Both the position numbers and the translations under genes were made by a program. Below, piece by piece: positions 18,058 to 62,159 of a stretch of DNA of 64,000 nt; the stretch's first letter is position 1, and each line of letters begins with the position of its first letter. The notes under the pieces were generated by a model. That model did no database searches. It saw nothing but the letters and a program-made list of their open reading frames with translations, and had not been told where the DNA came from. The stretch comes from a virus (taxonomy: Duplodnaviria > Caudoviricetes): the IMG/VR virus record IMGVR_UViG_2593339225_000003, positions 32,001-96,000 of that record. One strand, written 5' to 3'.

Positions 18058-18131
18058 TGGAGCTGAAACCGAGAGTCGGACTCGGATTAGTAGGTTACAA
18101 ATCTACGGTACTACCATTATACTATTTCAGC
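18058..18131 (-). tRNA. tRNA-Thr(TGT)
   Basis: Cloverleaf, anticodon arm GTAGA-TT TGT AA-CCTAC, encoded CCA; T-loop slightly atypical. Confidence 0.8.
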
Positions 18132-18149
18132 ATATTACCCTTGCGGGTA

Positions 18150-18954
18150 TTAAGCGGCATTTCGATAATATGATGAATGTCGCGGGATATTATATTTATC
18201 GCACCATTTACGAACCGCATTGTCTGTTACTCCATATATTTTACCGACACTTACAAAAGAATTTTTTGATAGTAAATCAATTAATTCTTTCTTACTTGGT
18301 ATATATTGAATTAATTGTTTGTTATAACAATCAGGACATAATAGTGTTTTGCATTTTCCACTTAATTTTTTACCACACTGCAAACACGCATAATCTCTTT
18401 TTACTCTAATAGAAACATCTTTATTTTCTTCTTGCCTTTGTGCAAAAGATTTTTTATTGTTTTTTATTGCAGTTTGCCTAATCGGGTATTGTTTATTGTC
18501 ATCTTTCCAAGTATTTCCAACATTTATTTGAGAGATTGTATTAAAATGCAGTGAATACTTTTTTGCAATTTCATTTTCAGTTAAAATGTTTTCTTCTAAA
18601 TCAACAATTATTTTATTAACAGTATCTTGATTTAATTTTTTATAGTATAGCATATCGCCTCCAGCAGTGAGATTATAACCATTTGGATATTTGGTGTTAT
18701 ATTTAGCAATATAATATATTTCTTTTTCTTTTAATTCTTCTTTTTTATATCCTTCGATAACCTCAAAATTAAAATTGTTAAATCCAAAATAGTTAAGCAT
18801 ATGATGAAAGTAAGAATTTTCTGTTGATTTACCAGTATCTCTTTTGACATCACTCTTATTTTTTATGTTGATTATATCTTCTTTTTATATTTGTACTTTG
18901 TCCAATATAAGATTCACCTGTTATTTTGTTCGTAAATTTGTATATTCCTATCAT
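18150..18954 (-). pseudogene. GIY-YIG homing endonuclease split by a 1-nt frameshift
   Basis: MIGIYKFTNKITGESYIGQS N-terminus stops at about 18856. Removing one A from the A6 run rejoins it to the 18150-18800 ORF (PNGYNLTAGG, C-terminal HTH). Confidence 0.8.
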
Positions 18955-19174
18955 AATAAAACTTCCTTTCTGCAAAAAGATATAAAAAAACAAAGTTAGT
19001 AATTGTTGTTGCAGCAACAAAAAGAGAGCGACTCTCTGTCCTAACTTTGTATTTTGACAAATGTATTCGATTGTGAACAAAAAACTTTCGATTTCTAAAA
19101 ACAATAGAAACAAACGATGTTTAATAAAATATCAAATCAGTATAACTCTACCAACTGAGCTACACGAGAATATA

Positions 19175-19420: not shown

Positions 19421-19783
19421 ATTTGATTGAACTATTATGCAAAATATGTAAATCGCGGGAATTGCACAATCAATTACATCTACTCATACAACGATTAAAT
19501 TGTAAAAGCAGATAGTTAGTCTTTTTTATAATGTAGATAATGTAGAAGGATGATTGTGTTTAGCCGCGTTGTTTTAAGATGCGCCGACGCAGCTTTTGCC
19601 GCGCCAACGCCAATTCTGAAAGAGAAAGATAAAGAAATGAGAGTATAAGTGGGTTATCCCCCACTCATATAAATAAAAGGATTCGTTTGTGTAAATTGCA
19701 CAAAATACCCTGTAAACCCTCTAAAATAGGGCGTTTTTGTTGTGAAAAATGCACAAATTTCTTTGATTTCTCTCATATTTGCG

Positions 19784-40863: not shown

Positions 40864-43800
40864 ATGAAAACATACATCCATTATGGCTCAAAACAATTCG
40901 ACAAAGAGCGTTTTACACCAATTCAAAATTGTTATCCGCGAAATAAGCCTATTGGCGGGTTATGGGCTTCCGAAGTTGGTGCTCGATACAGTTGGAAACG
41001 ATGGTGTGAAGGTGAGAATTACCGTACCGACCATTACAGAGCGGATAATTATTTCAAATTCACGATTGCAGAAAATGCAAAAATCCTTACTCTACTATGT
41101 GCAGATGATGTAAAAGCTATGCCAATGCTCGGCAAAGCTGGAATCGTTGATTATAAACCTGATTTTGAAGAAATAATGTCTTTGGGTTATGACGCTATTG
41201 ATTATCGTCTGAGCGATGAAGTTGGAGCATTTGCATTTGATAGCCTGTATTGGTGTCTGTACGGCTGGGATTGTGATAGCATTTTGATACTAAACAAAGA
41301 TATTGTTATACCAATTACGGAGGAATAAACTATGGAAAATTTTATAGGAATAGCTACTTGTTTCCTCTTTGGTGGAATAATTACAGGGGCATATATTATA
41401 TTCCGCTTATTGATTGAATTAATACTTGATAAAATCAGTTTTTTGGAATCAAAATGGCTATTAATCACATTGATTGTGATGTTTGGGTTATTTTTGCTTG
41501 TACTTTTAACAATACTATGTGGTGTAATAATCACTTTTGTATTTAATGCAGGAGGATAAAATGAAAGATTCAAGAAAGAAATCACATAGACACGATAAAG
41601 CTGTAAAGGCTGCGTATAACCTTCTTGTGAGTTATCGGAAACTTATGGAAGAAAAAGGTTAAGACGAATACGCGGCTGAAATTGAATCGGCATATAAAGA
41701 TTTATGGTGTGAATGTTTGAATGAAAAAGCACCGTGGTAATGCAAAGAAACGAGGTATATAAATGACTAACACTCTTTATGATTATGACCCGACCAAAGC
41801 CGAGCGGAAGGCTCTTGGCTACGATTGGGCGGAAAAAGCAAGACGGCAGTTTGAATTAGATAAAATCAACCGTGAGTTGAAAATAGGAATGGTAGTGTTC
41901 TTTATTAGCGGTTCAATAGGTAAACGGAGAGTTGATTTTGGAACTATTGACTTTCATTATCCCGGCGCGGTCAGCCTTGCACTATATGACGTTCCGCGTA
42001 AAAGAGCCATAGACGGCGTTCCTATTGACCAAATGCAATTTCCTACGCCATTCAAGAAATTACCGAAGAACTGGACGTATGACACGGAATTATATAAGGT
42101 GACATATTTGCCTTACCCGCCCGAAGTCGCGGAAGAAGCTAAACATCTTTCTCCGCGCAAAGCCGAGGATGTTAGGCGAGCTATTGACATCGGATTTATC
42201 GTTAATCGTCGCGACGTGGATTATAGTAATATCGAAACCAACTTTTCTAAAGGTGACGGATGGCAGATTGTCAAGAGAAGTACGCCGTTTTCTACGCCAT
42301 TGCTAAATACATATAAGGCAACGTATGAGATTTACCAAACATACGAAGAAGCCGAGGAAGTAATCAAAGCAGAGGAGCGACAGTTACAAATCGAGTCCGA
42401 GATGTCGGATGAGGAATGGTCTATCTATCAGATTGACAGAACCTTGTCGAAAATCTCTATGTCGGAAACGGATAGGGAACAGTACAGAAAATTTCTTTTG
42501 TCTTTGGATAACATTGAGGATGTCGTTGTCCGACTGAGCGACGGTACGATTCAGTGGAAATATGACCGAAACAAAAGATGGAATAACATCGAGGTATAAC
42601 TAAAATAAATAGCAAAAAACTTTTATATTTCTATTGACATTCGCGGAAAACCGTGATATAATAATAAAGACCATTAAGAGTGCGTAAGGGAACAAGCCCA
42701 ATGACCGTACACCAACCTACCGAGTGGCAAGGTGGTAATGCTTGTCTGTATCGCTACAATGATATAGAACCAATGGGAATCTTTTACACCTCTAATGAGA
42801 TAAATTAGAGAGGATTTGAAACAATGACAAACAACAGAACAATCAAAGAATTAAGCAAAAAGAATGGCAGAGTATATGTATTTCTTGCCAATGTAGAGGT
42901 CGGCGAGCAGTTCCTTCAGCAAGCCGAAGATGAGGGTTTTAACTTCGCGGACGGCGCAAAACCCACGGAACGCTGCTATGCTGAGATTATGGCGGTCAAC
43001 GGAAACAAGACAATCAACTTTGTCGGCGCGAACGGCAGGATTGCTTTCGGCAGCGGAGCGAAGAAGATTGGCGACCAGAAGTTAATCCGCGTGGACTATG
43101 AGAAGTATCTAACCGGCGCGGAAAACTATGAATACAAGCAGTAATATCAAGGTCAAGCAATGCCGAAGATTCAGCGTAGAGGAATAATATTCTTTATCGA
43201 GAAAAATATCCGTGGTGCTTGGGTTATCTATGGATTGGAAGGAATTAAGCAATACTATGGATATACCAAAGAACAGGCACGGCAAAAATATCTTGATGAA
43301 GCGCGAACAATAATAAATGAGAAATGAGGTTATTATGACAAAACTGAGAGTGTGGTGGATTCCGCAAGTTCCAATGGAAGCCTTTTACATTCCTGTCGAA
43401 TCGCCCGAAGAAGGTCAAAAGGTAATGAATATCCTTGCGACCTATGACTGTTTCCGGTATAACCACAATGTTAAGCCGGATTATGCCAACACGGGCGGCT
43501 TGGAATACTTCAATGAAGAAAGCGGCGAGTGGGAAGATTGGTACTTTGAGGACGAAAATTCCTACTATGACAACCTTGATGAATACATTGAGGAACAGTC
43601 CGACCGCGCGGCTGAAATTGAAGCTCAGAACAAGGCTTTACTCGAACAGGTGTATTTCGATTAAGAGGTGTTATGAATGTTAAACGTTGAAAGACGGACA
43701 GACAAAAAATTTTTTAACTGCAATAATTGCGGAGCAACGAATTATGAATCGGAATGGAATGATACTGTTGATTATTTAACGCATATTTCCACCGAAAACG

Positions 43801-51940: not shown

Positions 51941-53362
51941 ATGGATGATTTTCAAACACTTACTGATTTTGGGAATCTCTATAATTCTTACCTTGTTTCG
52001 TTAAAAGGCAAAGGTAAGATAAAGAGTGCGGCGAGATTTAATATTATGGCACTCGAAAACCTTTATGTAATGAAGCAACGTCTTTTAAACCATACATATC
52101 GAATTTCGCCGTATTCAGAGTTTGTAGTTAAAGAACCAAAAGAAAGAATTATAAAATCTGGTTCATTTCGCGATAAGGTATTACAACATTGTTTATGCGA
52201 TTATGTGTTGATACCAAAACTTAATAATGAATTTATACTTGATAATTATGCCGGACAGATTGGCAAAGGTACTTTGTTTGGTTTGGATAGATTATCGAAG
52301 CATCTATTAGATTTCTATTCCGAACGCGGTTGTAATGGTTATATTTTAAAATGTGATATAACTAAATTCTTTTATTCAATTAACCATAATGTAATGAAGA
52401 AATTGATTAAAGAATTATTTACTGATGAGGATATTCAATGGATTTGTAATTCATTTATTGACAGTGTGGATGGTGATGGTCTACCTCTCGGAAATCAAAG
52501 TAGTCAAGTTTTCGCACTTATATATCTTAACGGTCTTGACCATTACATAACCAAGGAATTAGGTTGCAAGTATTATGGTCGATATATGGACGATTTTTAT
52601 TTACTTTCTGATGATAGAGAATATCTCAAAGAATGTTTGGCTAAAATTAAAAAATATTTGGCTAATCTCAAATTAACATTGAATAACAAAACCGAGATTG
52701 TTTCAATGAGTAAGGGAATACGATTTCTCGGATTTCATACATATCTTACCGAGGAGGGCAAGATTATCCGCAAACTTAACAGTGATAACAAAAGACATAT
52801 TAAAAAGCGTTTGAGAAAATATGCAAAGTTAGTTTTTGATGGCAGAATGGAGAGAAAACGCTTTAATGAGATATATCAATCGTGGCGAAATCACGCTTCT
52901 CACGGTAATTGTTTTAAACTGATTTATGAAATGGATTTATTTATGGATGAATTAATGAATGAGCAGAAAACAGAATTAAGAATAATTATTGCCGGAAGTA
53001 GAGATTTCAATGATTACGAATTTCTAAAGAAACAACTGTCTAAATTTATCAAAGACCACCAGAATAGGAGATTTACTATTGTTAGTGGTGCAGCCCGTGG
53101 AGCAGACCAACTCGGAGAGAAATACGCAAGAGAGAAATGTATTCAATTAAAGCGTTTTCCTGCGGACTGGAATAACCTTGGACGGAGTGCAGGATATATT
53201 CGCAATACTCAAATGCTGGATTATATCAAGCAAAATGATTGTGAGGGATATGTATTGGCATTTTGGGATGGTCAGAGCAAGGGAACACGGCATATGATTA
53301 AAACCGCCAAAAAAGCGGGAGTGACCGTTGAAATAAAATTTTTCAAAAAAAAATTAATGTAA
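51941..53362 (+). CDS. DGR reverse transcriptase fused to a C-terminal SLOG (DUF2493/YspA-like) domain
   Basis: RT motifs FRDKVLQH, KCDITKFF, GLPLGNQSSQ and YGRYMDDF; C-terminal IIIAGSRDF...VSGAARGADQLG...AGYIRN...AFWDGQSKGT. Confidence 0.9.
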   Translation: MDDFQTLTDFGNLYNSYLVSLKGKGKIKSAARFNIMALENLYVMKQRLLNHTYRISPYSEFVVKEPKERIIKSGSFRDKVLQHCLCDYVLIPKLNNEFILDNYAGQIGKGTLFGLDRLSKHLLDFYSERGCNGYILKCDITKFFYSINHNVMKKLIKELFTDEDIQWICNSFIDSVDGDGLPLGNQSSQVFALIYLNGLDHYITKELGCKYYGRYMDDFYLLSDDREYLKECLAKIKKYLANLKLTLNNKTEIVSMSKGIRFLGFHTYLTEEGKIIRKLNSDNKRHIKKRLRKYAKLVFDGRMERKRFNEIYQSWRNHASHGNCFKLIYEMDLFMDELMNEQKTELRIIIAGSRDFNDYEFLKKQLSKFIKDHQNRRFTIVSGAARGADQLGEKYAREKCIQLKRFPADWNNLGRSAGYIRNTQMLDYIKQNDCEGYVLAFWDGQSKGTRHMIKTAKKAGVTVEIKFFKKKLM

Positions 53363-53406: not shown

Positions 53407-53576
53407 TCTAAATGTAGTCAAGAGAAGCCGATGTGGGTCGGCAATTCTTAAAATCTTTAATGTAAATAGCACAAAAAATATAAATCGAGTAGTGAGTATA
53501 GAGCCATATGAAGTGCGCCGCGACGTACAACCGTTAGCTGAATCCGTACAAATTCGCTATCGGGCGGCAGAGATTA

Positions 53577-53650
53577 GGAGCCTTGTGTAGTTTGGTTTAG
53601 CATCGCGCGATAGTTAGCGCGGAAAGCAGGTTCGATTCCTGCTGGTTCTG
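53577..53650 (+). ncRNA. tRNA-like element with non-canonical anticodon loop
   Basis: T-arm GCAGG-TTCGATT-CCTGC, stem CGCGC/GCGCG with an 8-nt loop, no CCA. Confidence 0.55.
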
Positions 53651-53795
53651 GCTGAAAAGAAAATCTCTTAAAAGCACAGATTATGAAAAAGTAGTGACAG
53701 GAAAATGAGAATAGAAGAAAACCGTTGATGATACTACGCGCGGGTTGAATCAACCTCTACTCCCATAGGTGAGAGTCCTATGGCTCGATTTTCAA

Positions 53796-53869
53796 TGGGC
53801 TATGGTGTAGCGGTAACACAGCGGACTTTGACTCTGCCATCTCTGGTTCAAATCCAGATAGCCCAGCCA
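53796..53869 (+). tRNA. tRNA-Gln(TTG)
   Basis: GCGGA-CT TTG AC-TCTGC, CCA end. Confidence 0.9.
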
Positions 53870-54220
53870 GAGGTCGAACTGCCTTTAGCCAAAAGAGTTT
53901 GTTTTCATACTTTTGTTTATCGGAAGTAAGGTTTGCGCGTTTTACTTAATAAGAGCGTGGAGTACGGTTTCAATTTAAGCCGAGGGAAGTTTATTCATTC
54001 TGACCTATGGAAAGCGAATGGGTAAGGCAGGATTCGTGCCTTGTATATCGGAGATTACAAGTAATCATATTCCGGGTTGGCTGCGAGATATTGATTACAC
54101 AGATTAGGATGACAACCTACTTTCAACCGCAAAAGATAACAATAGTCAATAAATTTAATGGCTCGCGGCTCGCAAAGAGCGACCACATATTATGACTTTG
54201 GCGGAAGTCGCGGGTTATAT

Positions 54221-54316
54221 GGCGCGGTAATCCTAATTGGTAAGGAGTTGTCCTGCTAAGACAATAGTAGCCGGGTTTATCTCGGTGTGTGAGTTCAAGT
54301 CTCACCCGCGCCGCCA
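54221..54316 (+). tRNA. tRNA-Ser(GCT)
   Basis: TTGTC-CT GCT AA-GACAA, long variable arm, CCA end. Confidence 0.9.
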
Positions 54317-54484
54317 ATGGTTCTCGTTGACCCAGAATAACGAGCGATGCCCAATGAGAAGCGGGCGTGAAGTCTGTCAGTCAGACAATGCTGAGATAGC
54401 GGCTGCGTGTTAAAATGCTTGGATTTTGCGGTTTTTCGCAGAGGATTTCGCGTGAAGAAATGGAGTAAGAAAAACCGTATATAT

Positions 54485-54884
54485 GGGGCTGAAATAGATT
54501 CGACAGGGCGCAGAAAACATATAACTTCGCAGGAATGTAACATCCTTAAAGTACATCTTAAAAATAAACGACACTACTGTTGTTACGCTTCATCCCGCGC
54601 TTTTAGCAGTTCTCGGTCAGAGAGCCGTAGCGTGAGATTCCGATAAGCACCTGCTATTCGGTCTAACTTATCGGACGGAAATAGAATAGCAAACAACGGT
54701 TTCTTGCCTCCGTAAAAGGTAAGTGTTGGAGTGGGTGTAATTCCTTACATCTCCATTCGTTTCCCGCGAATTAAAACAATGTTGTGGTTTGCAGATTGCC
54801 ACGGAGCAAAATCGGCTATTGCGTGAAAAGAGTTAGTGTGGGTATGTGTTTTGGACACGGGTTCGATTCCCGTCAGTTCCACCA
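54485..54884 (+). ncRNA. ssrA: tmRNA
   Basis: 5' GGGGCTGAAATAGATTCGAC, 3' GACACGGGTTCGATTCCCGTCAGTTCCACCA, G3-U pair, internal tag ORF 54570-54635. Confidence 0.92.
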
Positions 54885-54890
54885 GTTATA

Positions 54891-55328
54891 GGGTTAGGCA
54901 ATTTGTTAGTGTGCTTTCCTAATTTGGCATATTACTGTAATGCCAAAGGGAAATGAGGGTTTTGCCAATGCCGGATAGAAAGAGGTTGATTCCGGCTATG
55001 TTTCTAAAGGATGCGGTGCGGAATAGCAGGACTGATATAAGTGATGGAGAAGAAATTCAGAGAAGTTGCTATATGTCGAGGATAAGTAGTCCATCCTGTT
55101 CCTTTTGAAACGAGAATCGACTAAGGGCATCAGGGACTCCCCCGATTGCACGTATTTCGTGCATTACGAAGGCAATAAAGTTAGTAATAACGTGAGCAAC
55201 TATGGTGAGGGAAGGGAGTCGCTGGACAGTGGGAAAGTCCAGGTTTTGAAGAAAGATGAACCAAATCCACATCTATAAAAAGGATTGGTGGTAGTGGAAT
55301 CTTTGTATTCACCCGATGAACCTAACTC
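54891..55328 (+). ncRNA. Candidate large structured ncRNA
   Basis: No plus-strand ORF in the track; closing stem GGGTTAGG/CCTAACTC; several hairpins and crossing long-range pairings. Confidence 0.45.
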
Positions 55329-55401
55329 ACATCGTTAAAAAGAGTTGGTGGTGGGTGTGTTGTTTTTACGACTCCGGACAGCCCGGAAAGACGGGCAATT
55401 T

Positions 55402-55476
55402 GCAGATATGATGTAGCTGGTAGCATATCAGCCTTCCAAGCTGAATGGGCGAGTTCAAATCTCGTTATCTGCTCCA
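55402..55476 (+). tRNA. tRNA-Gly(TCC)
   Basis: TCAGC-CT TCC AA-GCTGA, CCA end. Confidence 0.9.
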
Positions 55477-55653
55477 ATGCTGATTGAGCTGGTGAAAGAC
55501 CTCCCCAACTATAAGGGGTGAACTGTTCGGCTCGTATAATTAGCAGCATAGTTGGTAGCACTACGGTCAAGAAGCTATCCGCGATTGGTGGTTGACGTAG
55601 GGATTTGACAACCAATAACCATCTGACACCTCGGAAAGACGAGGCATATATGT

Positions 55654-55729
55654 GGCGGGTTAGTCAAGAGGTTAAGATACGCGGCTTTCAATCGCGTGAC
55701 GCTGGGTTCAATTCCCGCACCCGCTACCA
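55654..55729 (+). tRNA. tRNA-Glu(TTC)
   Basis: CGCGG-CT TTC AA-TCGCG, CCA end. Confidence 0.85.
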
Positions 55730-55818
55730 TAAGTTCATTTTGAACTTCTTCTCATTAGATAGTTTATTCTTGGATTCGGAATAAATTCATCTTGGCGGCT
55801 CGGAAAGACGAGCAACCT

Positions 55819-55892
55819 GCGGATATGATGTAATGGTAGCATATCAGATTCCCAATCTGATTGTGAGGGTTCAAATCCCTTTATTCGCTCCA
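55819..55892 (+). tRNA. tRNA-Gly(CCC)
   Basis: TCAGA-TT CCC AA-TCTGA, CCA end. Confidence 0.9.
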
Positions 55893-55910
55893 TATAGGTT
55901 GGTGCTGAAA

Positions 55911-56273
55911 ATGATTGAAATAATAATTACATTTGTTGTTCCTATATTACTGAATTTAATAATCATTATTAGTGCAATAATCCAAAATGAAAAAGAGAAA
56001 CAATGTCACGAACACTTACTTCATAGTATTCCACATACTCCTGTTATGGATAAAACTGTGAATGGCGATAGCGATATAAATGAGTTGTTAGAAACTTGTC
56101 TCAAATTGGGTTGTAACGGATTTACTATGAATGAAATGAGAGAGATGCTTAATATAGAGAAAGTTACAAATGATAATATTAGCAAGCCAAAACATTATCC
56201 AACAAATTGTGTGAACTGTGGCGCAGTATTACACGGAAATCAATGCGAATATTGCGGAACGGAATACAATTAA
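55911..56273 (+). CDS. Membrane-anchored protein with C-terminal Zn ribbon
   Basis: Hydrophobic N-terminus and CVNCGA...CEYCG; start moved to 55911 to avoid the tRNA. Confidence 0.6.
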   Translation: MIEIIITFVVPILLNLIIIISAIIQNEKEKQCHEHLLHSIPHTPVMDKTVNGDSDINELLETCLKLGCNGFTMNEMREMLNIEKVTNDNISKPKHYPTNCVNCGAVLHGNQCEYCGTEYN

Positions 56274-56277
56274 ATAT

Positions 56278-56352
56278 GTGGTTGTTGGTGTAACGGTAGC
56301 ACGGTAGCTTGTGACGCTATTAGCGTAGGTTCGACCCCTACACTTCCACCCA
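56278..56352 (+). tRNA. tRNA-His(GTG)
   Basis: GTAGC-TT GTG AC-GCTAT, C discriminator and CCA; acceptor stem has mismatches. Confidence 0.75.
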
Positions 56353-56354
56353 TA

Positions 56355-56429
56355 TGGCGAGATAGTTTAATGGGTAAAGAACACCACCGGAAGGGTGGAG
56401 GCGCAAGTTCGACACTTGCCTCGCCAACA
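56355..56429 (+). tRNA. Atypical tRNA-like gene (5-nt anticodon loop GGAAG)
   Basis: Acceptor TGGCGAG/CTCGCCA, T-arm GCAAG-TTCGACA-CTTGC, ends ACA. Confidence 0.5.
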
Positions 56430-56522
56430 TAAAATTTGTGTGGTGCGTTGCCGAAAAATCGGAGGAAAGCACGATGACCGCGTGGAAAGTCGCGTTGACA
56501 CTTTGGAAAGACAAAGGTATAC

Positions 56523-56597
56523 GCCGATGTAGCTCAGTCAGGTAGAGCAGCGGACGGATAATCCGCGGTGTCGGTGGTTCGATTCCACCCATCGGTT
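56523..56597 (+). tRNA. tRNA-Ile(GAT), G at position 33, no encoded CCA
   Basis: GCGGA-CG GAT AA-TCCGC; canonical D and T arms. Confidence 0.75.
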
Positions 56598-56735
56598 GGG
56601 CTTTAGAAGGTCATACGCCCAACTCACAAGACCTCTCACAGTGATTCGCGACATTGTGGATGCGAAACAAGTGTAATACAACTTGGTTGAGTGCCAAAAA
56701 GTGTTGGGCACCTCGGAAAGACGAGGAGTATACTT

Positions 56736-56811
56736 GTGCGTATAGCAAAATTGGTAATGCACTTGACTTTTAATCAAGAGATTGTCAGTTCGAGCCTGAC
56801 TACGCACACCA
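56736..56811 (+). tRNA. tRNA-Lys(TTT)
   Basis: CTTGA-CT TTT AA-TCAAG, CCA end. Confidence 0.9.
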
Positions 56812-56813
56812 TA

Positions 56814-56982
56814 GACGGCTATTTGTAATCTTCCTTCTATCATTGGACTGTAAATCCGATACCACTCATAGATTGCAAAATTCCCGTTACCTTTTTAGCG
56901 GCTATGTAGAAACTTCCTTCTTCCGTCTCACATACAGAGGTGGATTTCGACCATATGAAATTATAGTTTTTGCAATTCCCGC
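56814..56982 (+). ncRNA. Two Y-RNA-like scaffold ncRNA units (56814-56888, 56898-56982)
   Basis: NNGG-CTA-stem-TTCCTTCT-cargo-stem'-ATTCCC consensus. Confidence 0.75.
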
Positions 56983-57013
56983 GAAATTAAAAAACAAAAA
57001 AGGAGAAAAAGAA

Positions 57014-59248
57014 ATGAATGTATTAAATGAAATTTTGTTGAGAAGAAAAAATCAGCTCATTCTCGAAAATGTAAACCCGGATTATGGACAGACCGACAGT
57101 GAAAAGGCAATGGTCGGCGCAATCCTCAAAAATGTTCAGTCACTTGGATTTACGTTTGCCCGCGATGTGCTTGAAATTCTGTTTCACTATAACCGCGCGG
57201 AGTTAGAGTCATTCTATCGTGACCTCATTCCCGAGTTGAAGAAACTTGTCGGCGCAGACGTTCAGTACAATCCTATGTACCCGAACTTCCCGCAGCAGGT
57301 AATGGAAGCAAGCGATGCGGAACTGTTCATTAACGCCATTATTCATTATTGGTCGTTTGGAACGCTTCTCCCGCAGTACGAGAAGCAGGAAAGACTGCCT
57401 TTAATTGATGACAATAAAATGACGGTTTTATCGACAGGAAATTGCAAGAACGTAGGCGAAATCTTGCAAAATTTGCTTAAATCTCCTACAAATCTGTCTG
57501 AAAATGACAGAAATGACATAGCAACTTGCATAAAAAATATGCCAAATTATGCAGAATTTTTGCCGGACGAGATTCCGCTCAAAGAAAACGTTGCTTTCTT
57601 GGGAAAACTCATTATTGAGCAAACTCCGATTAAAACCAGCCGAAATATCGAAAAATATTTCAAAACTGCGACAGATGTTCTTCGTTTGGTCACTGCATTG
57701 TCTGACGGCGACATCAGCCTTGCGACAAAGACTCAGTACAGAAACCTTCGTCGAGCAGAACGCAGGATTATAATGAACTTACTTGCAAATTGCGGAAATA
57801 TCTTGGAGGATTTGTACTGCTATAAGTATGAGTGGTTGTACATTGGCAAAATGCTCCACGTTGGCGAGTATTGGTATATGAAGAAGTACAACAACGTCAG
57901 AGGTGCTTTCTATACCTTCCGCAACGAGAAGAAGCCTATGTTTATGGCTGGCAAGGTTCAGGCAGCTATTCTCAAAAACGATATGCTTGAGGCGGCAAAT
58001 ATGCTGAAATCAAGACCCGGCGATTTTGCAAGACAGCTTGACAAGTTGCTCAGAGATAGCGATGAAAAGCACATTGCATATATCACGGCTGCGTTTGCGG
58101 AAGTCGCGGAGAAAGTTTCAACTCCTGTTCTGTTGCAGGTCAGAGAACACTTTATCGAGCGCAAGGGCGAGAAAATGCCTATAAGAGTGTTCTTCCCGAA
58201 GGGCAATGTTGCAAAAGCTATGGTTATCCCGAATGACCTGCCGGCAATTTCTGTCACCGCTTGTCAGCAAATTGTTGATACTTGCAACAAGGCTTTGGTC
58301 GCGCAGTTCAAGACGAAAGAGCCTATGGGTAAGGTTTATATCAATCCCGATTTCAAGAACTATCTCGTGCCGTTCAGCCAGAGAAGCGCAAGTTCCGCGA
58401 ATAAAATCGTTGTGCGCGGAAGTAAGTTGCCCATCAATCCAAAGGCAAAAGCTGTTCGCGGATTTATTTGGTGGACAAATATGGGTAGCAATGATATGTA
58501 CGATGGCAGAGTTGACATTGACCTTTCAGCGGCAATCTATGATGAGAATTGGAACTACGTTGAACACGTTTCCTATACTAATCTCCGCTCTAAGAAGTAC
58601 AACGCTTGTCATTCCGGCGACATCACGAACGGCGGGTCTGTAAACGGCGACGGCGTGGCTGAGTTCCTTGATGTGGATATTGATTCCGTTGCAAGAAATG
58701 CAGGAAGATATATCGTCTATCAGGTTTACAGTTTCACAAGGCAGAAGTTCTCTGAAATGCCCAACTGCCGATTCGGTTGGATGGAGCGTGAGGACGTTGA
58801 TAGTGGTGAAATCTTTGAACCAAAGACGGTTGAGATGAAGATTGACCTCACTTCCGAGAGTGACGTTGCAATTCCCGTTATCTTCGACTGCGTGGAGCGC
58901 AAATTCATTTGGTGTGATATGAACCTCCGCATTGCACAGACGAGATTGGGCGGCAATAACCTTGAAAGCAATCTCAAAGGTACAACTGCTACTTGCTATG
59001 CGCTCACTCATTTCAACAAGCCCAATCTGTATGAGTTGGTTTACCTCAATGCTTTTGCAAGAGGTGAGATAACCACCGACAGAAACGCGGCGGATATTAT
59101 CTTCGACAATGATAAGACGATTCCTTATGAGGTTGTCGAAACCGTTGACGAGGTTACGGGATTACCTTCTCGCACACTCCGCGACAAAACGGAAGTTCCG
59201 ATTATAGACAGCTATAACTTCGATTTTCTTGTCGGAGAGCTGTTATAA
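57014..59248 (+). CDS. 744-aa protein: alpha-helical N-region plus TerD-like C-terminal domain (candidate Ro/TROVE-analogous RNA-binding protein)
   Basis: AGGAG RBS at 57001; PMYPNFP, TATDVLR and RPGDFARQLD motifs; C-terminal DIDLSA, HSGDIT and AEFLDVD as in TerD-type domains. Confidence 0.65.
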   Translation: MNVLNEILLRRKNQLILENVNPDYGQTDSEKAMVGAILKNVQSLGFTFARDVLEILFHYNRAELESFYRDLIPELKKLVGADVQYNPMYPNFPQQVMEASDAELFINAIIHYWSFGTLLPQYEKQERLPLIDDNKMTVLSTGNCKNVGEILQNLLKSPTNLSENDRNDIATCIKNMPNYAEFLPDEIPLKENVAFLGKLIIEQTPIKTSRNIEKYFKTATDVLRLVTALSDGDISLATKTQYRNLRRAERRIIMNLLANCGNILEDLYCYKYEWLYIGKMLHVGEYWYMKKYNNVRGAFYTFRNEKKPMFMAGKVQAAILKNDMLEAANMLKSRPGDFARQLDKLLRDSDEKHIAYITAAFAEVAEKVSTPVLLQVREHFIERKGEKMPIRVFFPKGNVAKAMVIPNDLPAISVTACQQIVDTCNKALVAQFKTKEPMGKVYINPDFKNYLVPFSQRSASSANKIVVRGSKLPINPKAKAVRGFIWWTNMGSNDMYDGRVDIDLSAAIYDENWNYVEHVSYTNLRSKKYNACHSGDITNGGSVNGDGVAEFLDVDIDSVARNAGRYIVYQVYSFTRQKFSEMPNCRFGWMEREDVDSGEIFEPKTVEMKIDLTSESDVAIPVIFDCVERKFIWCDMNLRIAQTRLGGNNLESNLKGTTATCYALTHFNKPNLYELVYLNAFARGEITTDRNAADIIFDNDKTIPYEVVETVDEVTGLPSRTLRDKTEVPIIDSYNFDFLVGELL

Positions 59249-59257
59249 TACAATTTG

Positions 59258-60009
59258 GCGGCTAAGAGATTCCATCCTTCTAATGATAGGTTCAACTCCT
59301 GTTGTAAGTGTGGTTTACAATGTAGGAAACTCAATTTCCGCAATTACACTCATTTTTGCGGCTAAGTGCAATCATCCTTCTATTTTTACATAATGAAGAA
59401 AATAATGCTAACCGTCGTGGTTAGCCCCAAAATTTGATTGCACAATTCCCGCGCTTTAATTCACATCCTGCGGCTAAATCATAACATCCTTCTAAAAAAA
59501 GAACTTGCGCTTTAGGCGCGACTAAATACATAAGATTTTGTTACGATAATTTCCGCAAAAAAATTAATGTAAATAGCAAAAAACATATTGACAGAAATAT
59601 CATTCTATGATATAATCTTAAATGTAAGTTAAACAAACTATTGTGGCTAACAAAATTCATCCTTCTACCCGTATGGGAACAAAATTGGTAGTTTGTCTAT
59701 TGAATTTTGAATTTCCACTTTTACATAGTTTAATCGGCTAAGAAACATCATCCTTCTAAAAAGTGTTAATCTGTTTGTCGTGGGTTCGAGTCCCACCACG
59801 CTACGAATGTAGGGTGTAGCTCAGTTGGTAGAGCAACAGCGAAAAGTCGATGTTTCAATTTCCGAACAATAATTGAATTTGGGCGGCTAACGAGTATCAT
59901 CCTTCTTACAGCTCCAAACTGCAATCGCGGGTTCGATTCCCGCTCATCCAACCTTTGGGTGGTGGTCAAGTGGTAAGACAGCAGTTATGTACGATATTCA
60001 AATTCCCGC
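59258..60009 (+). ncRNA. Six Y-RNA-like scaffold ncRNA units (59258-59341, 59358-59452, 59470-59556, 59643-59718, 59734-59865, 59883-60009)
   Basis: Same consensus with fully covarying stems; the last two contain circularly permuted tRNAs. Confidence 0.8.
59588..59616 (+). promoter_or_regulatory. sigmaA promoter inside the ncRNA array
   Basis: TTGACA-17-TATAAT preceded by GTAAATAGCAAAAAACATA. Confidence 0.8.
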
Positions 60010-60034
60010 AAAATAAATAGCACAAAACATAAAT

Positions 60035-60120
60035 GCGGATATGGCGGAATAGGTAGACGCGCGTGATTTAGGTTCACGTGTCCCTGTGGCGTGTGGGTTC
60101 AAGTCCCTCTATCCGCACCA
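60035..60120 (+). tRNA. tRNA-Leu(TAG)
   Basis: CGTGA-TT TAG GT-TCACG, variable arm, CCA end. Confidence 0.9.
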
Positions 60121-60137
60121 AAATTAAGGAGAACCAT

Positions 60138-60428
60138 ATGAAAAAGATTTTGAGCATTATGTTCACGGTAATTGCAATAACTGGTATAATTTTCACTTTC
60201 GCAAGAGCCACAGCGATTGTCGAAAGAGGAAGTCAAGCATTTGGCGGCGAAATGCTCATTCTTTTAATTCCTGTTATCGCGTGGATTGTTTATTGCAATG
60301 TTAATACTACAAAGCAGGAGTTTAAGGATTACAAGTTGACAGATGAAGCCGAGGGCGCGGGTTATATTGCAAATCCTGATTTCGGTGGGTCAATTCAAAT
60401 CACAGACATTAACGAAATTTCGATATGA
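60138..60428 (+). CDS. Small membrane protein
   Basis: AAGGAG RBS; two hydrophobic helices around ERGSQAFGGE. Confidence 0.65.
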   Translation: MKKILSIMFTVIAITGIIFTFARATAIVERGSQAFGGEMLILLIPVIAWIVYCNVNTTKQEFKDYKLTDEAEGAGYIANPDFGGSIQITDINEISI

Positions 60429-60489
60429 TAATCACCTCCTTTAAAGGCAAAGCGGAAAGACGTTTGACAGCCGGATAGACGGCAAAAAT

Positions 60490-60576
60490 GCGGGTGTGGT
60501 GGAATTGGTAGACACATCGGGTTTAAGCCCCGATGGGCGTTTGCCCGTGCAAGTTCGAGTCTTGTCACCCGCACCA
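60490..60576 (+). tRNA. tRNA-Leu(TAA)
   Basis: TCGGG-TT TAA GC-CCCGA, CCA end. Confidence 0.9.
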
Positions 60577-60579
60577 TAT

Positions 60580-60656
60580 GCTCCGATAGCTCAATAGGTT
60601 AGAGCGTTCGCCTTATAAGCGATTGACGATTGGTTCAATCCCATCTCGGAGTACCA
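60580..60656 (+). tRNA. tRNA-Ile(TAT)
   Basis: TTCGC-CT TAT AA-GCGAT, CCA end. Confidence 0.8.
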
Positions 60657-60692
60657 CAAACATAGTCAAAATCATTTAAGGAGAAGTTTGCG

Positions 60693-62159
60693 TTGAGTAC
60701 AGATAAGAAATACTATAAAATTTCACAATATACAATGAAATGCCGACTTTATCCGAATAAAACGGTTGCTAAAGGTTTTGATAAGGCAATTCAAGCTATT
60801 CATTGTTATCATAATTGCCTTTTATACGATATTTTTAATGGAAACATTGAATCTACTGCAAAGCCATATAAGCCAAAAAAGGAATCAAAGCCTGAGAAAA
60901 AGAAAAATGAAAGCGATTTTGATTATCGGCAACGTCTTTACTCTTATGAACAAAAGCAAAAGTACAAAGAGGGCGATATAATTCATTTCCCGAATTTGAA
61001 TTACGCATTTTCCGCAGAGTATAAGAACAAGTTAATCGAAGAACATCCCGTAATCGCTAATGCTCCGGCTTCTGCAATCACAGCAAAGATTGGTCTTATG
61101 TCCGATGTTAAGAAATCGCTCGGCAAACTTCCAATCGAATTTCAGAAACCAAAGTATTATAGCAAGAAAAAGCCAAGACAGAGTTTTTCTTATCAAGATG
61201 TATTAGGTAAATTAGTTGAAACCGATAATAAAAATGTATTGTTTATTAAACTGCCAGAGAAATTTGGCGGCACACGCTCAAATCCTGCAAAGTGTAAAAT
61301 TCGCGGTTGGAATAAAAAAATTCGTTTTGATAGATACGGGGAAATAAATTTTATAGATTATTTCAAATCCAATCCAAACAAAAGGATTACTATTAAAATC
61401 GAAAAGGATAATTGTGGTGATTATTGGATTGTTTTTTCACTGACCAATGTTTATAAGTCAATGGCAAATCCACAAAATACATTTGGTGGTATTGATGTTG
61501 GAATAAAAGATATTGCTATTCTTTCTGATAATACAAAATTTGAAAATCGAAAATTTAAGGATGAAGAAAAACAGCATATTAAATTTTTGAATAGGCGATT
61601 GAGCAGAAGGCAAGGTTGGTCTAACGAAGAATTTAGAGATGGCTATAAGCAGAACAAAGATATGATTGTATCAAAAACATATCAGAGAACACAGCTTAAA
61701 CTTTCTAAATTACACAGAAAAATCGCTCGTAAGAGGGAGAACTATAATCATAATATAACCACAAAGATTATAAATACATATTCGTTCATTGGTATTGAAA
61801 CTCTGAATGTAACTGGTATGTTTAGAAACAGACATTTATCAAATGCTTTGTCGGATGCCGCTATGGGAGAAATTTTGTCAATGCTTAAATATAAAGCAGA
61901 ATGGTATGACAGAATCATTCAACCCATCAGTCAATGGTCGCCATCAAGTAAACGGTGTAGTTGCTGCGGATATATTAGACCAAAGTTGGGCTTACATATC
62001 AGAGAGTGGCAATGTCCAAAATGCGGAACGTTTCACGATAGAGATGTAAATGCCGCAATAAATATTCTTTACTATGCTTTGTTAATTTATTACGGCGAAG
62101 AAAAAGGCAAAGAAATTTTTGAAAAATTGAATAATAATTTTCAATTATTATGTGCATAG
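60693..62159 (+). CDS. CRISPR-associated TnpB/Cas12f-like RuvC nuclease (488 aa)
   Basis: RuvC-I GGIDVGIK, RuvC-II IGIETL, Zn finger CSCCG/CPKCG and RuvC-III HDRDVNAAINI; adjacent anti-repeat and array. Confidence 0.85.
   Translation: MSTDKKYYKISQYTMKCRLYPNKTVAKGFDKAIQAIHCYHNCLLYDIFNGNIESTAKPYKPKKESKPEKKKNESDFDYRQRLYSYEQKQKYKEGDIIHFPNLNYAFSAEYKNKLIEEHPVIANAPASAITAKIGLMSDVKKSLGKLPIEFQKPKYYSKKKPRQSFSYQDVLGKLVETDNKNVLFIKLPEKFGGTRSNPAKCKIRGWNKKIRFDRYGEINFIDYFKSNPNKRITIKIEKDNCGDYWIVFSLTNVYKSMANPQNTFGGIDVGIKDIAILSDNTKFENRKFKDEEKQHIKFLNRRLSRRQGWSNEEFRDGYKQNKDMIVSKTYQRTQLKLSKLHRKIARKRENYNHNITTKIINTYSFIGIETLNVTGMFRNRHLSNALSDAAMGEILSMLKYKAEWYDRIIQPISQWSPSSKRCSCCGYIRPKLGLHIREWQCPKCGTFHDRDVNAAINILYYALLIYYGEEKGKEIFEKLNNNFQLLCA

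What the first reader, a model, noticed from the sequence alone, without database searches (positions are those of the whole stretch)
56814..60009. Eight-copy modular ncRNA family with tRNA-derived cargo flanking a helical/TerD-like protein: candidate undescribed Ro-Y RNA-like RNP system
Seen: eight units, two upstream and six downstream of the 744-aa gene, share NNGG-CTA(A)-[stem]-(A/T)TCCTTCT-[cargo]-[stem']-ATT(C/T)CC-NN. The inner stem differs in every copy yet always pairs: TTTGTAATC/GATTGCAAA, TGTAGAAAC/GTTTTTGCA, GAGATTCC/GGAAACTC, GTGCAATCA/TGATTGCAC, ATCATAACA/TGTTACGAT, CAAAATTCA/TGAATTTTG, GAAACATC/GATGTTTC, GAGTATC/GATATTC. The outer stem also covaries (GCGG/CCGC, GTGG/CCAC, TCGG/CCGA, ACGG/CCGT). 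The internal loop and pyrimidine tract stay fixed, which points to selection on an RNA structure with a protein-binding site. Established: Y RNAs pair their 5' and 3' ends into a Ro60/Rsr-binding stem, carry a pyrimidine-rich stretch, and bacterial ones lie next to the rsr gene. Inference: the 57014-59248 protein binds this scaffold as a Ro-like partner, and each RNA displays different cargo. The function could be RNA repair or decay, or decoys against host tRNA-targeting defence nucleases. The motif is not the canonical Y RNA motif as I know it.
Basis: partly seen in the sequence, partly recalled or inferred. Interest (0 to 1): 0.92.

Follow-up and report, generated by a model that had tools for sequence, protein, structure and literature searches.

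The report
New small-RNA family with TerD-fold partner
A large phage carries nine copies of a previously uncatalogued structured small RNA, two of them tRNA look-alikes, clustered around a gene for an uncharacterised protein, and the same RNA-plus-protein pair turns up in many phages and bacteria, which suggests a new RNA-protein particle that resembles the Ro/Y-RNA system without being related to it.

Summary
All eight units are present at 56814-60010. A ninth lies at 19454-19568 (-) beside a second tRNA cluster. Each unit has an outer stem (NNNGG/CCNNN), an internal loop (CUA(A/U) opposite RAUUYCC), a variable 8-bp stem closed by C-G, an invariant WUCCUUCU, and then variable cargo. On 60 units from other loci, 90.1% of cells pair against 54.8% in shuffles.

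Units 7 and 8 carry a YrlA-type tRNA-like domain, but their Rfam YrlA scores (44.3 and 19.2 bits) fall below the 69-bit threshold. No Rfam 15 family matches the scaffold.

The 744-aa protein is not Ro60/TROVE. It has no Pfam hit. Its confident AlphaFold model matches only TerD structures, through the C-terminal half. The N-terminal helical domain matches nothing solved.

RNA and protein co-occur. Units were found in 79 of 83 phage loci and 78 of 80 genome loci that encode a homologue. In five bacterial genomes, all eight whole-genome RNA hits sit next to the gene. Forty relatives of the host bin lack both.

Best reading (0.6): a new, widespread, self-contained RNA-protein module that works like Ro/Y RNA but is not a member of that family. 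Binding, transcripts and function are untested.

The parts
56814..56888 (+). Unit 1. Scaffold RNA whose cargo is a 5-bp hairpin with the 7-nt loop CUGUAAA.
   Evidence: R1 51.1 bits. MFE fold z -3.6. The loop is identical to the anticodon loop of the window's tRNA-Tyr.
56897..56983 (+). Unit 2. Scaffold RNA with two small hairpins as cargo. It ends 31 nt before the start codon.
   Evidence: R1 45.3 bits. MFE fold z -3.4.
57014..59248 (+). Gene for the 744-aa protein P0001. It has an N-terminal all-helical domain (about residues 1-385), a TerD-fold beta-sandwich (about 480-640) and a C-terminal alpha/beta part. It is the presumed RNA partner.
   Evidence: Translation. No Pfam hit. phrog_33734, function unknown. 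NF041916 at 387.6 bits, below its cutoff of 600. AlphaFold pLDDT 93.8. Foldseek matches only TerD structures, E 3e-6 to 7e-5.
59257..59342 (+). Unit 3. Scaffold RNA whose cargo is a T-arm-like hairpin followed by a second hairpin. The inner stem has one A-A mismatch.
   Evidence: R1 37.8 bits. MFE fold z -1.3, the weakest of the nine.
59357..59453 (+). Unit 4. Scaffold RNA whose cargo includes a 7-bp GC-rich hairpin.
   Evidence: R1 48.4 bits. MFE fold z -5.7.
59469..59557 (+). Unit 5. Scaffold RNA whose cargo is a GC-rich hairpin that can be drawn as a 5-bp stem with the 7-nt loop CUUUAGG.
   Evidence: R1 46.1 bits. MFE fold z -3.1.
59588..59616 (+). Promoter-like site (TTGACA, 17 nt, TG-TATAAT) 26 nt upstream of unit 6.
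   Evidence: 12 of 12 hexamer matches with an extended -10. It is the only perfect match in 53500-60800, although the total number of sites there is no more than chance gives.
59642..59719 (+). Unit 6. Scaffold RNA with short cargo.
   Evidence: R1 42.6 bits (this unit is a row of the model's seed alignment). MFE fold z -2.2.
59733..59866 (+). Unit 7. Scaffold RNA whose cargo is a tRNA-like domain: T arm, acceptor stem closed by a loop, and D arm.
   Evidence: R1 44.8 bits. Rfam YrlA RF02553 at 44.3 bits, E 8e-8, below the gathering score of 69. Its D-arm stretch is 20/20 identical to a tRNA-like 5' half elsewhere on the contig.
59882..60010 (+). Unit 8. Scaffold RNA with a second, different tRNA-like domain. 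It ends 25 nt before tRNA-Leu(UAG).
   Evidence: R1 32 bits with filters off. YrlA 19.2 bits, E 1.4. T arm, 7-bp closed acceptor stem and D arm read from the sequence.
19454..19568 (-). Scaffold RNA with 70-nt hairpin cargo, directly upstream of tRNA-Glu/Tyr/Asp on the minus strand and 37 kb from the protein gene.
   Evidence: Pattern hit. Sequence. R1 41.4 bits. MFE fold z -5.0.

Best explanation
The units are genes for a new class of stable small RNAs of about 60-135 nt. Their 5' and 3' ends pair into a conserved scaffold: an outer stem, an asymmetric internal loop (CUA(A/U) opposite RAUUYCC), a variable 8-bp stem closed by C-G, and an invariant single-stranded WUCCUUCU. The adjacent protein, which has a helical domain and a TerD-fold domain, is their dedicated partner. 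It most likely recognises the invariant loop nucleotides and forms a ribonucleoprotein, while the variable distal part ('cargo') is displayed.

In bacteria the module is minimal, with 1-3 short RNAs plus the gene. In this phage it is expanded to nine RNAs embedded in tRNA arrays. Two of them carry a tRNA-like domain of the kind seen in bacterial YrlA Y RNAs, and others carry anticodon-arm-like hairpins. By analogy with Ro60/Y RNA, the particle would act in RNA surveillance or repair. In the phage, its tRNA-like modules would bring in or distract tRNA-binding enzymes.

Shown: the RNA structure, the covariation, the strict co-occurrence with the gene, the protein's fold, and the lack of relationship to TROVE. 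Inferred: transcription and processing into discrete RNAs, protein-RNA binding, and every functional step.
For: 1. Structure under selection. On 60 units, 90.1% of cells pair against 54.8% in shuffles, and the covariation score is 0.873 against 0.194. Pairs the finder did not impose also covary. All nine window units fold this way on their own.

2. Conserved unpaired nucleotides across 274 distinct units: GGCUA, the C-G closing pair, WUCCUUCU followed by A, a UA before the 3' stem strand, and RAUUUCC. This pattern is what a protein-binding or tertiary-contact site would show.

3. Co-occurrence in phages. Of 83 phage loci chosen only for encoding a protein homologue (22-96% identity), 79 have at least one unit on the gene's strand. 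There are 334 units on that strand against 11 on the other strand and 6 in shuffled loci. 281 of the 334 lie within 500 nt of the gene. Variant but recognisable units flank the 26-33% identical genes of Xanthomonas phage XacN1 and Rhodococcus phage Weasels2.

4. Co-occurrence in genomes. In 78 of 80 genome loci (Paenibacillus, Brevibacillus, Priestia, Niallia, Chloroflexota, Acidobacteriota, cyanobacteria and gut MAGs), model R1 gives 147 hits at E<=0.01, 146 of them on the gene's strand.

5. Specificity. Whole-genome searches of five of those genomes (5.7-8.7 Mb) gave 8 hits, and all 8 lie next to the gene. In the window's own 2.54-Mb assembly, hits occur only in this phage contig. Forty relatives lack both the RNA (0/40) and the protein (0/40).

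6. No other conserved neighbour. Flanking genes in seven cellular loci are unrelated to one another. The nearby reverse transcriptase occurs in 4 of 83 loci and the TnpB in 2 of 83.

7. Independent RNA genes rather than leaders. Units lie both upstream (169) and downstream (154) of the gene. One sits 37 kb away on the other strand. Units 6-8 have their own perfect promoter-like site.

8. tRNA-like cargo. YrlA model hits of 44.3 bits here and 34-39 bits in 6 of 8 further loci tested.

9. The protein family is large and conserved, with 2859 clusters at 50% identity. It has many invariant or near-invariant arginines (R224, R247, R250, R303, R334, R340, R383, R482).
Against: - There is no direct evidence of transcription, processing or binding.
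- The protein has no recognisable RNA-binding domain. Foldseek finds only TerD, a calcium-binding fold with no known RNA role, and nothing for the helical domain.
- 4 of 83 phage loci and 2 of 80 genome loci showed no unit. Two of the four phage loci and one of the two genome loci have almost no upstream flank.
- In cultured bacteria, most copies sit within about 300 nt upstream of the start codon on the same strand, which also fits a cis-acting leader.
- The unit finder required the core motif and 7 stem pairs, so its counts are for that definition. The strand and shuffle controls use the same definition.
- Whole-genome RNA searches scored only 122-150 of the first-look candidates per genome.
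Confidence: 0.6

Rival explanations
1. The units are cis-acting leader elements (protein-binding autoregulatory sites or ligand-sensing riboswitch-like domains) that control expression of the TerD-fold gene, not free-standing RNAs.
For: In most of the 78 genome loci with hits, the units lie within about 300 nt upstream of the start codon on the gene's strand, often as 2-3 tandem copies. In the window, unit 2 ends 31 nt before the ATG. The pyrimidine core could in principle pair with a purine-rich ribosome-binding site such as the AAGGAG here.
Against: Of the 334 phage-locus units, 154 lie downstream of the gene. Several Bacillales loci (L102, L103, L105, L109) have them only just after the stop codon. 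One window unit is 37 kb away on the other strand beside tRNAs. Units 6-8 follow the gene and have their own promoter-like site. Cargo up to 210 nt, including tRNA-like domains, is not expected of a leader. The Priestia gene's ribosome-binding region (GGTGGTG) is not complementary to the core. Autoregulation through one upstream copy could coexist with the main reading.
Confidence: 0.12
2. The RNAs are substrates or precursors rather than partners. The protein would be an enzyme that cuts, joins or modifies RNA at the conserved scaffold, for example to release or circularise the cargo.
For: The cargo of units 7 and 8 looks like a permuted tRNA, with the 3' half before the 5' half, flanked by paired ends. 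That layout resembles permuted tRNA genes matured through a circular intermediate (recalled, not tested). Invariant acidic residues (D221, D501, D503, D536, E550, D553, D635) could serve catalysis as well as metal binding.
Against: Joining the ends of units 7 and 8 would not produce a normal 7-nt anticodon loop, since 20-21 nt and 8-9 nt separate the anticodon-like stem from the inner stem. Most units carry 13-40 nt of AU-rich cargo with no evident product. No nuclease, ligase or transferase fold was found.
Confidence: 0.1
3. The scaffold is a constant handle and the variable cargo is a guide that pairs with target nucleic acids, as in programmable RNA-guided systems.
For: Each unit combines a constant scaffold with a different variable segment, and the units occur in arrays of several different copies next to one protein gene.
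Against: The nine cargos searched against the whole 2.54-Mb assembly gave only sense-strand homology of units 7 and 8 to tRNA arms, plus 13-15-nt chance-level matches (E 0.06-1). Cargo is AU-rich (75% A+U) and often folds on itself. tRNA-like cargo is mimicry, not guiding. No nuclease domain was found. Only the own assembly was searched for targets.
Confidence: 0.06
4. It is an ordinary Ro60/Rsr-Y RNA (YrlA/YrlB) system that has diverged too far to recognise.
For: Units 7 and 8 match the Rfam YrlA model in its tRNA-like part. The conserved 5' GGCUAA differs at one position from the GNCGAA Ro-site motif reported for YrlA (passages of PMC4201824). The gene-RNA arrangement is the same.
Against: No TROVE match in the protein at E<=1. 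No TROVE in the own assembly or in five other carrier genomes, while the control genomes D. radiodurans and B. thetaiotaomicron were detected. Profiles of the family hit no Ro60 chain in the PDB at E<=10. No Ro60 chain appears among the 50 Foldseek rows shown for either model. YrlA scores are below threshold (44.3 and 19.2 against 69). The C-terminal domain is a TerD fold, not vWA.
Confidence: 0.03
5. The units are selfish or structural DNA repeats (REP/MITE-like palindromes or tRNA-array spacers) with no RNA function.
For: They are multicopy short inverted repeats in intergenic DNA of a mosaic region that also holds homing endonucleases and a TnpB.
Against: Stems differ in every copy yet stay paired, while the loops are invariant. 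That is RNA-level selection, not copy-paste. There is strict strand bias relative to one gene (334 against 11; 146 of 147) and conservation across phyla. Genome-wide they occur only beside that gene.
Confidence: 0.02

Closest known systems
Ro60 (Rsr) with Y RNAs, especially bacterial YrlA/YrlB (Rfam RF02553; Chen et al. 2014, PMC4201824, abstract and passages read)
   Same: Small RNAs whose ends pair into a stem with conserved nucleotides near the 5' end. They are encoded on the same strand within a few hundred bases of one protein gene, in several different copies. A long form carries a tRNA-like domain (T arm, closed acceptor stem, D arm) and a short form lacks it. The system is present in both bacteria and large phages, and in Weasels2 an RtcB ligase lies about 3 kb away.
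   Different: The protein has no TROVE or vWA domain and no detectable similarity to Ro60. The scaffold motif is GGCUA(A/U)...WUCCUUCU...RAUUYCC, not GNCGAA(N)G. YrlA scores are below threshold. Carrier genomes lack TROVE altogether.
TerD-family proteins of tellurite-resistance/Ter stress systems (PDB 2kxt, 2qz7, 2qng)
   Same: Residues of roughly 480-640 adopt the TerD beta-sandwich (Foldseek E 3e-6 to 7e-5, target TM 0.64-0.74). An SGD...E..D signature is invariant in the family. NCBI names close homologues 'TerD family protein'.
   Different: TerD proteins are single-domain proteins of about 190 aa encoded in ter operons with TerC, TerB and others. This is a 744-aa multidomain protein that stands alone with RNA genes. 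The Pfam TerD model does not reach E<=1. Iyer et al. 2021 (PMC7824862, passages read) listed stand-alone TerD in actinobacterial jumbo phages under Ter systems and did not mention RNAs in the passages seen.
NCBIfam NF041916, MXAN_6230/SCO0854 family RING domain-containing protein
   Same: Strong partial match (387.6 bits, E 1e-115) over residues 311-685 to profile positions 389-755. This is clearly the same superfamily core.
   Different: The score is below the curated cutoff of 600, and the N-terminal RING-bearing part of the 842-position profile is not matched. No paper on either locus tag was found.
Other bacterial RNA-protein modules defined first by comparative genomics (for example OLE RNA with OapA/B/C)
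   Same: A conserved structured RNA with dedicated, co-encoded proteins of unknown biochemical role.
   Different: No sequence or structural similarity. This RNA is much smaller, multicopy and modular. (This comparison is recalled, apart from the title and abstract listing of PMC7936274.)

Membership tests
YrlA / bacterial Y RNA (Rfam RF02553) | Score at or above the Rfam gathering threshold (69 bits) | tested here: not met
   Unit 7 scores 44.3 bits and unit 8 scores 19.2 bits. The other seven units give no hit at E<=10. Related loci score 34-39 bits.
YrlA / bacterial Y RNA (Rfam RF02553) | tRNA-like domain with a T arm, an acceptor-like stem closed by a loop, and a D arm | tested here: met
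   Units 7 and 8 only. The YrlA model alignment covers T, AS and D. The arms are visible in the sequence and folds.
YrlA / bacterial Y RNA (Rfam RF02553) | GNCGAA(N0-1)G motif near the 5' end (proposed Ro60 site; PMC4201824) | tested here: not met
   All nine units have GGCTAA or GGCTAT at that place. The family consensus is GGCUAU.
YrlA / bacterial Y RNA (Rfam RF02553) | Encoded within about 4 kb of, and on the same strand as, a Ro60/TROVE gene | tested here: not met
   No TROVE match in the own assembly, which is 100% complete by marker genes, nor in five other carrier genomes.
Ro60 / TROVE protein (PF05731) | TROVE domain detectable by profile | tested here: not met
   Pfam scan of P0001 at E<=1 gives only a chance-level M11L hit. 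Family profiles against PDB sequences give no Ro60 at E<=10.
Ro60 / TROVE protein (PF05731) | HEAT-repeat ring plus a vWA domain fold | tested here: not met
   Foldseek of the full model (pLDDT 93.8) and of the N-terminal model (pLDDT 87.1) against the PDB shows no Ro60 chain among the 50 rows displayed. The best N-terminal match has E 0.29. Rows below 50 were not seen.
TerD fold | Beta-sandwich superposable on solved TerD structures | tested here: met
   2kxt, 2qz7 and 2qng at E 3e-6 to 7e-5, probability 1.00, target TM 0.64-0.74.
TerD fold | Match to the Pfam TerD sequence family | tested here: not met
   No TerD family listed at E<=1. The family profile against TerD 2kxt gives only E 0.14.
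TerD fold | Calcium binding | not testable with these tools
   The invariant S534-G535-D536, E550, D553, D501 and D503 are compatible with the TerD metal site as I recall it. This was not tested.
NF041916 MXAN_6230/SCO0854 RING-domain family | Score at or above the curated cutoff (600 bits), including the N-terminal RING region | tested here: not met
   387.6 bits. Only profile positions 389-755 of 842 are matched in the best stretch.
Cis-regulatory leader / riboswitch | Located in the 5' untranslated region of the gene it controls | tested here: inconclusive
   True of units 1-2 and of most bacterial copies. Untrue of units 3-9 and of 154 of 334 phage-locus units.

The most novel reading that the evidence does not exclude
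This is a second, Ro60-independent, Y-RNA-like ribonucleoprotein system, widespread in bacteria of at least five phyla and in many large phages. A helical/TerD-fold protein is loaded with interchangeable small RNAs that share a GGCUA / UUCCUUCU / AUUUCC scaffold. Large phages have expanded the RNA set and grafted tRNA and anticodon-arm mimics onto it, to recruit RNA-repair or tRNA-handling enzymes or to distract host tRNA-targeting nucleases during infection.
Probability: 0.4. Interest if true: 0.9.

Novelty: new variant of a known kind. Interest (0 to 1): 0.8.

Why it matters
If the pairing is real, it adds a new, abundant class of structured bacterial and phage RNA: hundreds of examples in the loci sampled here, linked to a protein family of about 2,900 clusters at 50% identity. 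It also gives a first functional handle on a large protein family that has no Pfam model and is annotated only as 'TerD family'.

It would show that the Ro/Y-RNA design arose or was re-used with an unrelated protein. That design is a protein bound to the paired ends of a small RNA which displays a tRNA-like module. Such a finding bears on the long-open question of what the tRNA-like module of bacterial Y RNAs is for.

The module is small, self-contained and present in easily grown Bacillales, so the hypothesis can be tested directly.

For phage biology, it adds a candidate player to the tRNA-centred arms race, alongside phage tRNA arrays, tmRNA and RNA ligases.

Tried and rejected
- Canonical Ro/Y RNA was rejected.
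- The link to the nearby reverse transcriptase-SLOG gene and to TnpB was rejected: they occur in 4 of 83 and 2 of 83 loci.
- Known defence systems: no PADLOC match for the protein.
- ESM Atlas look-alikes for residues 1-470 returned only the protein's own family, with scores of 0.89 or lower.
- A conserved operon partner was sought in seven cellular loci and none was found.
- Pairing between the core and the cargo: GG, and especially UGG, is enriched in short cargos (UGG 37% against 14% in shuffles), but GGAA and longer complements are not. A small core-cargo helix is therefore possible but unproven.
- Guide-target search of the cargos against the own assembly found nothing beyond tRNA-arm homology.
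- Expression: one search for public RNA runs with the Priestia locus L123:2700-5200 and one laying of four runs, all Logan contigs. Contigs of three metatranscriptome runs cover parts of the gene body. The RNA unit (L123 2845-2907) is covered only by a single 8-kb contig of a fourth run, which says nothing about a discrete transcript. No conclusion is drawn either way.
- Literature: searches found no description of this RNA motif or of an RNA link for this protein family. The library lacks most subscription journals, the 2020 Annual Review on bacterial Ro60 was not held, and supplements are closed. Prior description therefore cannot be excluded.
- A thought that the pyrimidine core resembles the 3' tail of 16S rRNA comes from memory and was not tested.

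Full report
CONTEXT. The window is part of a 207,456-bp contig (C75) of a 2.54-Mb assembly. The contig is phage DNA. It encodes a portal protein, a large terminase, an exonuclease and several homing endonucleases. The window carries 18 tRNA genes and a tmRNA. The finding sits inside the larger of two tRNA arrays.

THE OBSERVATION. The pattern GGCTA-N7-11-TCCTTCT occurs nine times in the window, against 0.01 expected from shuffles. The ninth copy is at 19454-19568 on the minus strand, immediately upstream of tRNA-Glu/Tyr/Asp and 37 kb from the protein gene. Folded alone, every unit gives the same minimum-energy architecture.

The anatomy, from 274 distinct units collected in the window and 83 related loci:
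- 5'-NNNGG, the outer stem.
- CUA(U/A).
- An 8-bp stem of free sequence whose last pair is C-G.
- WUCCUUCU, usually followed by A.
- Cargo of 13-210 nt (median 35), usually ending in UA.
- The 3' strand of the inner stem.
- RAUU(U/C)CC-NNN-3'.

COVARIATION. On an alignment of 60 units from 60 different places, 90.1% of cells form standard pairs against 54.8% in shuffles. The covariation score is 0.873 against 0.194, and 0.115-0.173 when partners are slid by 1-3 columns. Eleven of 13 pairs change on both sides. The finder imposed seven of the inner pairs, so the fair test is the pairs it did not impose. The three N-N pairs of the outer stem pair in 70%, 85% and 88% of units (shuffled 38-43%), and an eighth inner pair pairs in 76% (shuffled 42%). 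The unpaired nucleotides are the most conserved part. That pattern fits a binding site rather than a mere hairpin.

CARGO.
- Unit 7 matches the Rfam YrlA model at 44.3 bits (E 8e-8; gathering score 69). The match covers a T arm, an acceptor-like stem closed by a loop, and a D arm.
- Unit 8 has the same layout with different sequence. Its YrlA score is 19.2 bits, and the arms can be read.
- Unit 3 has a T-arm-like hairpin.
- Units 1 and 5 have 5-bp hairpins with 7-nt loops. The loop of unit 1 (CUGUAAA) equals the anticodon loop of the phage's own tRNA-Tyr. In the 96%-identical phage locus L004 it reads CUGCAAA.
- The other units carry plain hairpins or AU-rich loops.
- Across all loci, 47 of 274 cargos have a T-loop-like motif. 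Sub-threshold YrlA hits (34-39 bits) fall in such units in 6 of 8 further loci tested.

So there is a long tRNA-like form and a short form, as with YrlA and YrlB.

THE PROTEIN. The gene is 57014-59248 (744 aa). The listed ORF extends upstream to a TTG start, but homologues begin at the ATG, which follows an AAGGAG. It has no Pfam family at E<=1, no PDB sequence relative and no PADLOC match. PHROGs places it in phrog_33734, function unknown. NCBIfam gives a strong but sub-cutoff partial match to the 'MXAN_6230/SCO0854 RING domain' family (387.6 bits against a cutoff of 600). Sources name close homologues 'TerD family protein'. The family is large, with 2859 clusters at 50% identity at E<=0.001.

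An AlphaFold model built on 95 sequences is very confident (pLDDT 93.8, pTM 0.91). Foldseek against the PDB finds only TerD structures, for roughly residues 480-640 (E 3e-6 to 7e-5). A separate model of residues 1-395 (pLDDT 87.1) has no match better than E 0.29, only generic helical-repeat proteins. No Ro60 chain appears among the rows shown. Family profiles hit no Ro60 sequence in the PDB at E<=10.

The Pfam TROVE model finds nothing in the window's assembly or in five other genomes that carry the module. The same search does ring in the control genomes D. radiodurans and B. thetaiotaomicron. The protein is therefore not a Ro60 relative by any test available here.

CO-OCCURRENCE. This is the core of the argument.

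(a) Phage loci. Eighty-three loci were chosen only because they encode a homologue at 22-96% identity. Of these, 79 have at least one unit on the gene's strand. There are 334 units on that strand, against 11 on the other strand and 6 in shuffled sequence. 169 lie upstream, 154 downstream, and 11 fall inside my approximate gene bounds. 281 lie within 500 nt of the gene. Two of the four loci without units have only 176 nt of upstream flank.

Even the 26%-identical gene of Xanthomonas phage XacN1 is preceded by three units (GGCCA...UUCCUUCU...CUUUCC). The 33%-identical gene of Rhodococcus phage Weasels2 is followed by four variant units (GGAUUAAG...UUACUUCU...GCUCACC), one of which carries a tRNA-like domain.

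(b) Genome loci. A covariance model of the scaffold (R1, 68 positions, 13 pairs) was run on 80 genome loci that encode a homologue. They include Paenibacillus, Brevibacillus, Priestia megaterium, Niallia, Heyndrickxia, Chloroflexota, Acidobacteriota, cyanobacteria and gut MAGs. It gives 147 hits at E<=0.01 in 78 of the 80 loci, 146 of them on the gene's strand. Most lie just before the start codon or just after the stop. Of the two loci without a hit, L164 has no upstream flank. L095 has a tRNA-like unit that my script found and the filtered search missed.

(c) Whole genomes. In five such genomes of 5.7-8.7 Mb, the 8 hits found all lie beside the gene (coordinates compared). In the window's assembly, hits occur only on this contig. 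Forty relatives of the binned host have neither the RNA (0/40) nor the protein (0/40). These genome searches score only 122-150 of the first-look candidates per genome, so weak copies elsewhere cannot be excluded.

(d) Other neighbours. Nothing else is conserved nearby. Neighbours in seven cellular loci are unrelated to one another: a GNAT acetyltransferase, a LacI regulator, a peroxiredoxin, a CBM9 protein, a DEAD-box helicase, an ABC1 kinase and a corrinoid adenosyltransferase. The window's reverse transcriptase-SLOG gene and TnpB recur in only 4 and 2 of the 83 loci.

The module is therefore RNA(s) plus this one protein.

WHAT IT IS NOT IN. Rfam 15 holds no family for the scaffold. Permissive scans of the window region, three phage loci, six cellular loci and eight further loci returned only tRNA, tmRNA, sub-threshold YrlA and chance-level hits. 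Eight literature searches found no description. Iyer et al. 2021 mention stand-alone TerD genes in actinobacterial jumbo phages as part of Ter systems (PMC7824862, passages). The library is incomplete and supplements were closed.

HOW IT MOST LIKELY WORKS. The units are probably transcribed with the tRNA arrays or from their own promoters. A perfect TTGACA-17-TG-TATAAT lies 26 nt before unit 6, and a similar promoter-like sequence precedes the Priestia unit. They would then be trimmed to the outer stem. The protein would bind the invariant internal loop and the UUCCUUCU loop. The variable stem would act only as a spacer, and the cargo would be displayed.

That is the logic of Ro60 with Y RNA, in which the RNA's paired ends carry the protein site and a distal module contacts other factors. 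The tRNA-like module is shared with YrlA, which Chen et al. 2014 showed to be modified and cleaved like a tRNA (PMC4201824, abstract and passages).

In bacteria the minimal form suggests a housekeeping or stress role in RNA handling. In this phage there are nine RNAs with tRNA and anticodon-arm look-alikes, next to tRNAs and a tmRNA. That suggests involvement in the contest over tRNAs, as adaptor or as decoy. All of this paragraph is inference. What is shown is structure, conservation and co-occurrence.

RIVALS.
- A cis-acting leader fits the bacterial upstream copies. It does not fit the downstream, distant, promoter-bearing and tRNA-like copies.
- An enzyme-substrate relation, such as processing of permuted tRNA-like precursors, is not excluded. 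However, the joined ends would not make an anticodon loop, and no catalytic fold was found.
- A guide-RNA reading finds no targets in the own assembly.
- Selfish repeats are excluded by the covariation and the strict gene linkage.

EXPRESSION. The one attempt allowed, on public RNA runs laid on the Priestia locus, gave only contigs. They cover the gene body but say nothing about the 63-nt RNA.

VERDICT. The Ro/Y analogy is a good description of the design, but membership fails on every defining feature except the tRNA-like module. I rate it a new variant of a known kind: a Y-RNA-like small RNA with a dedicated but unrelated protein partner. My confidence that the RNAs and the protein form a functional pair is 0.6. 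Interest is high because the module is widespread, uncatalogued and easy to test.

Noticed in passing
window 51941-53362 (+): A 473-aa protein with a reverse-transcriptase domain (PF00078, E 7.5e-18) fused to a YspA/SLOG-type domain (PF10686, E 4e-16), inside a phage. PADLOC gives generic RT and DRT-type matches (best 1.3e-31). It lies 3.5 kb upstream of the finding and is not linked to it, being present in 4 of 83 related loci.
   Followed up: partly
window 60693-62159 (+): A TnpB/Cas12f-like OrfB_IS605 protein (PF01385, PF07282) between tRNA genes of the phage array. It is present in only 2 of 83 related loci. Its own guide RNA region was not examined.
   Followed up: partly
window 54485-54884 (+): A phage-encoded tmRNA (Rfam 76.9 bits; ARAGORN tag peptide ending ...LGQRAVA) within the tRNA array. 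The related loci L001 and L004 also carry one.
   Followed up: no
window 42671-42776 (+): A SAM (S-box) riboswitch aptamer just over threshold (45.3 bits against 44.4) in phage DNA. The downstream gene was not examined.
   Followed up: no
window about 18130-19170 (-): After tRNA-Asp there is what looks like the 5' half of a tRNA (acceptor strand plus D arm, 20/20 identical to the D-arm stretch of unit 7). About 1 kb follows, holding a GIY-YIG-like reading frame broken by a stop, and then tRNA-Thr. This may be an intron- or endonuclease-invaded tRNA gene.
   Followed up: no
L004 2985-3059 compared with window 56814-56888: In the 96%-identical phage, the 7-nt hairpin loop of unit 1 reads CUGCAAA instead of CUGUAAA. 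If the loop is read as an anticodon loop, this single change switches it from Tyr-like to Cys-like. In L004 the unit at the place of window unit 7 also has a different inner stem and shorter cargo.
   Followed up: no
L135-L143 (Brevibacillus), locus positions about 1094-1194 and 2922-2990: Brevibacillus genomes keep one unit directly before the gene and a second about 1.8 kb upstream on the same strand, separated from the gene by genes on the opposite strand (shown for L137). This is another case of a unit that cannot be a leader of the gene.
   Followed up: no
L002 (Rhodococcus phage Weasels2) 9065-9854: An RtcB RNA ligase gene lies about 3 kb downstream of the TerD-fold gene and its four RNA units. 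This recalls the rsr-yrlBA-rtcBA arrangement of Salmonella (recalled).
   Followed up: no
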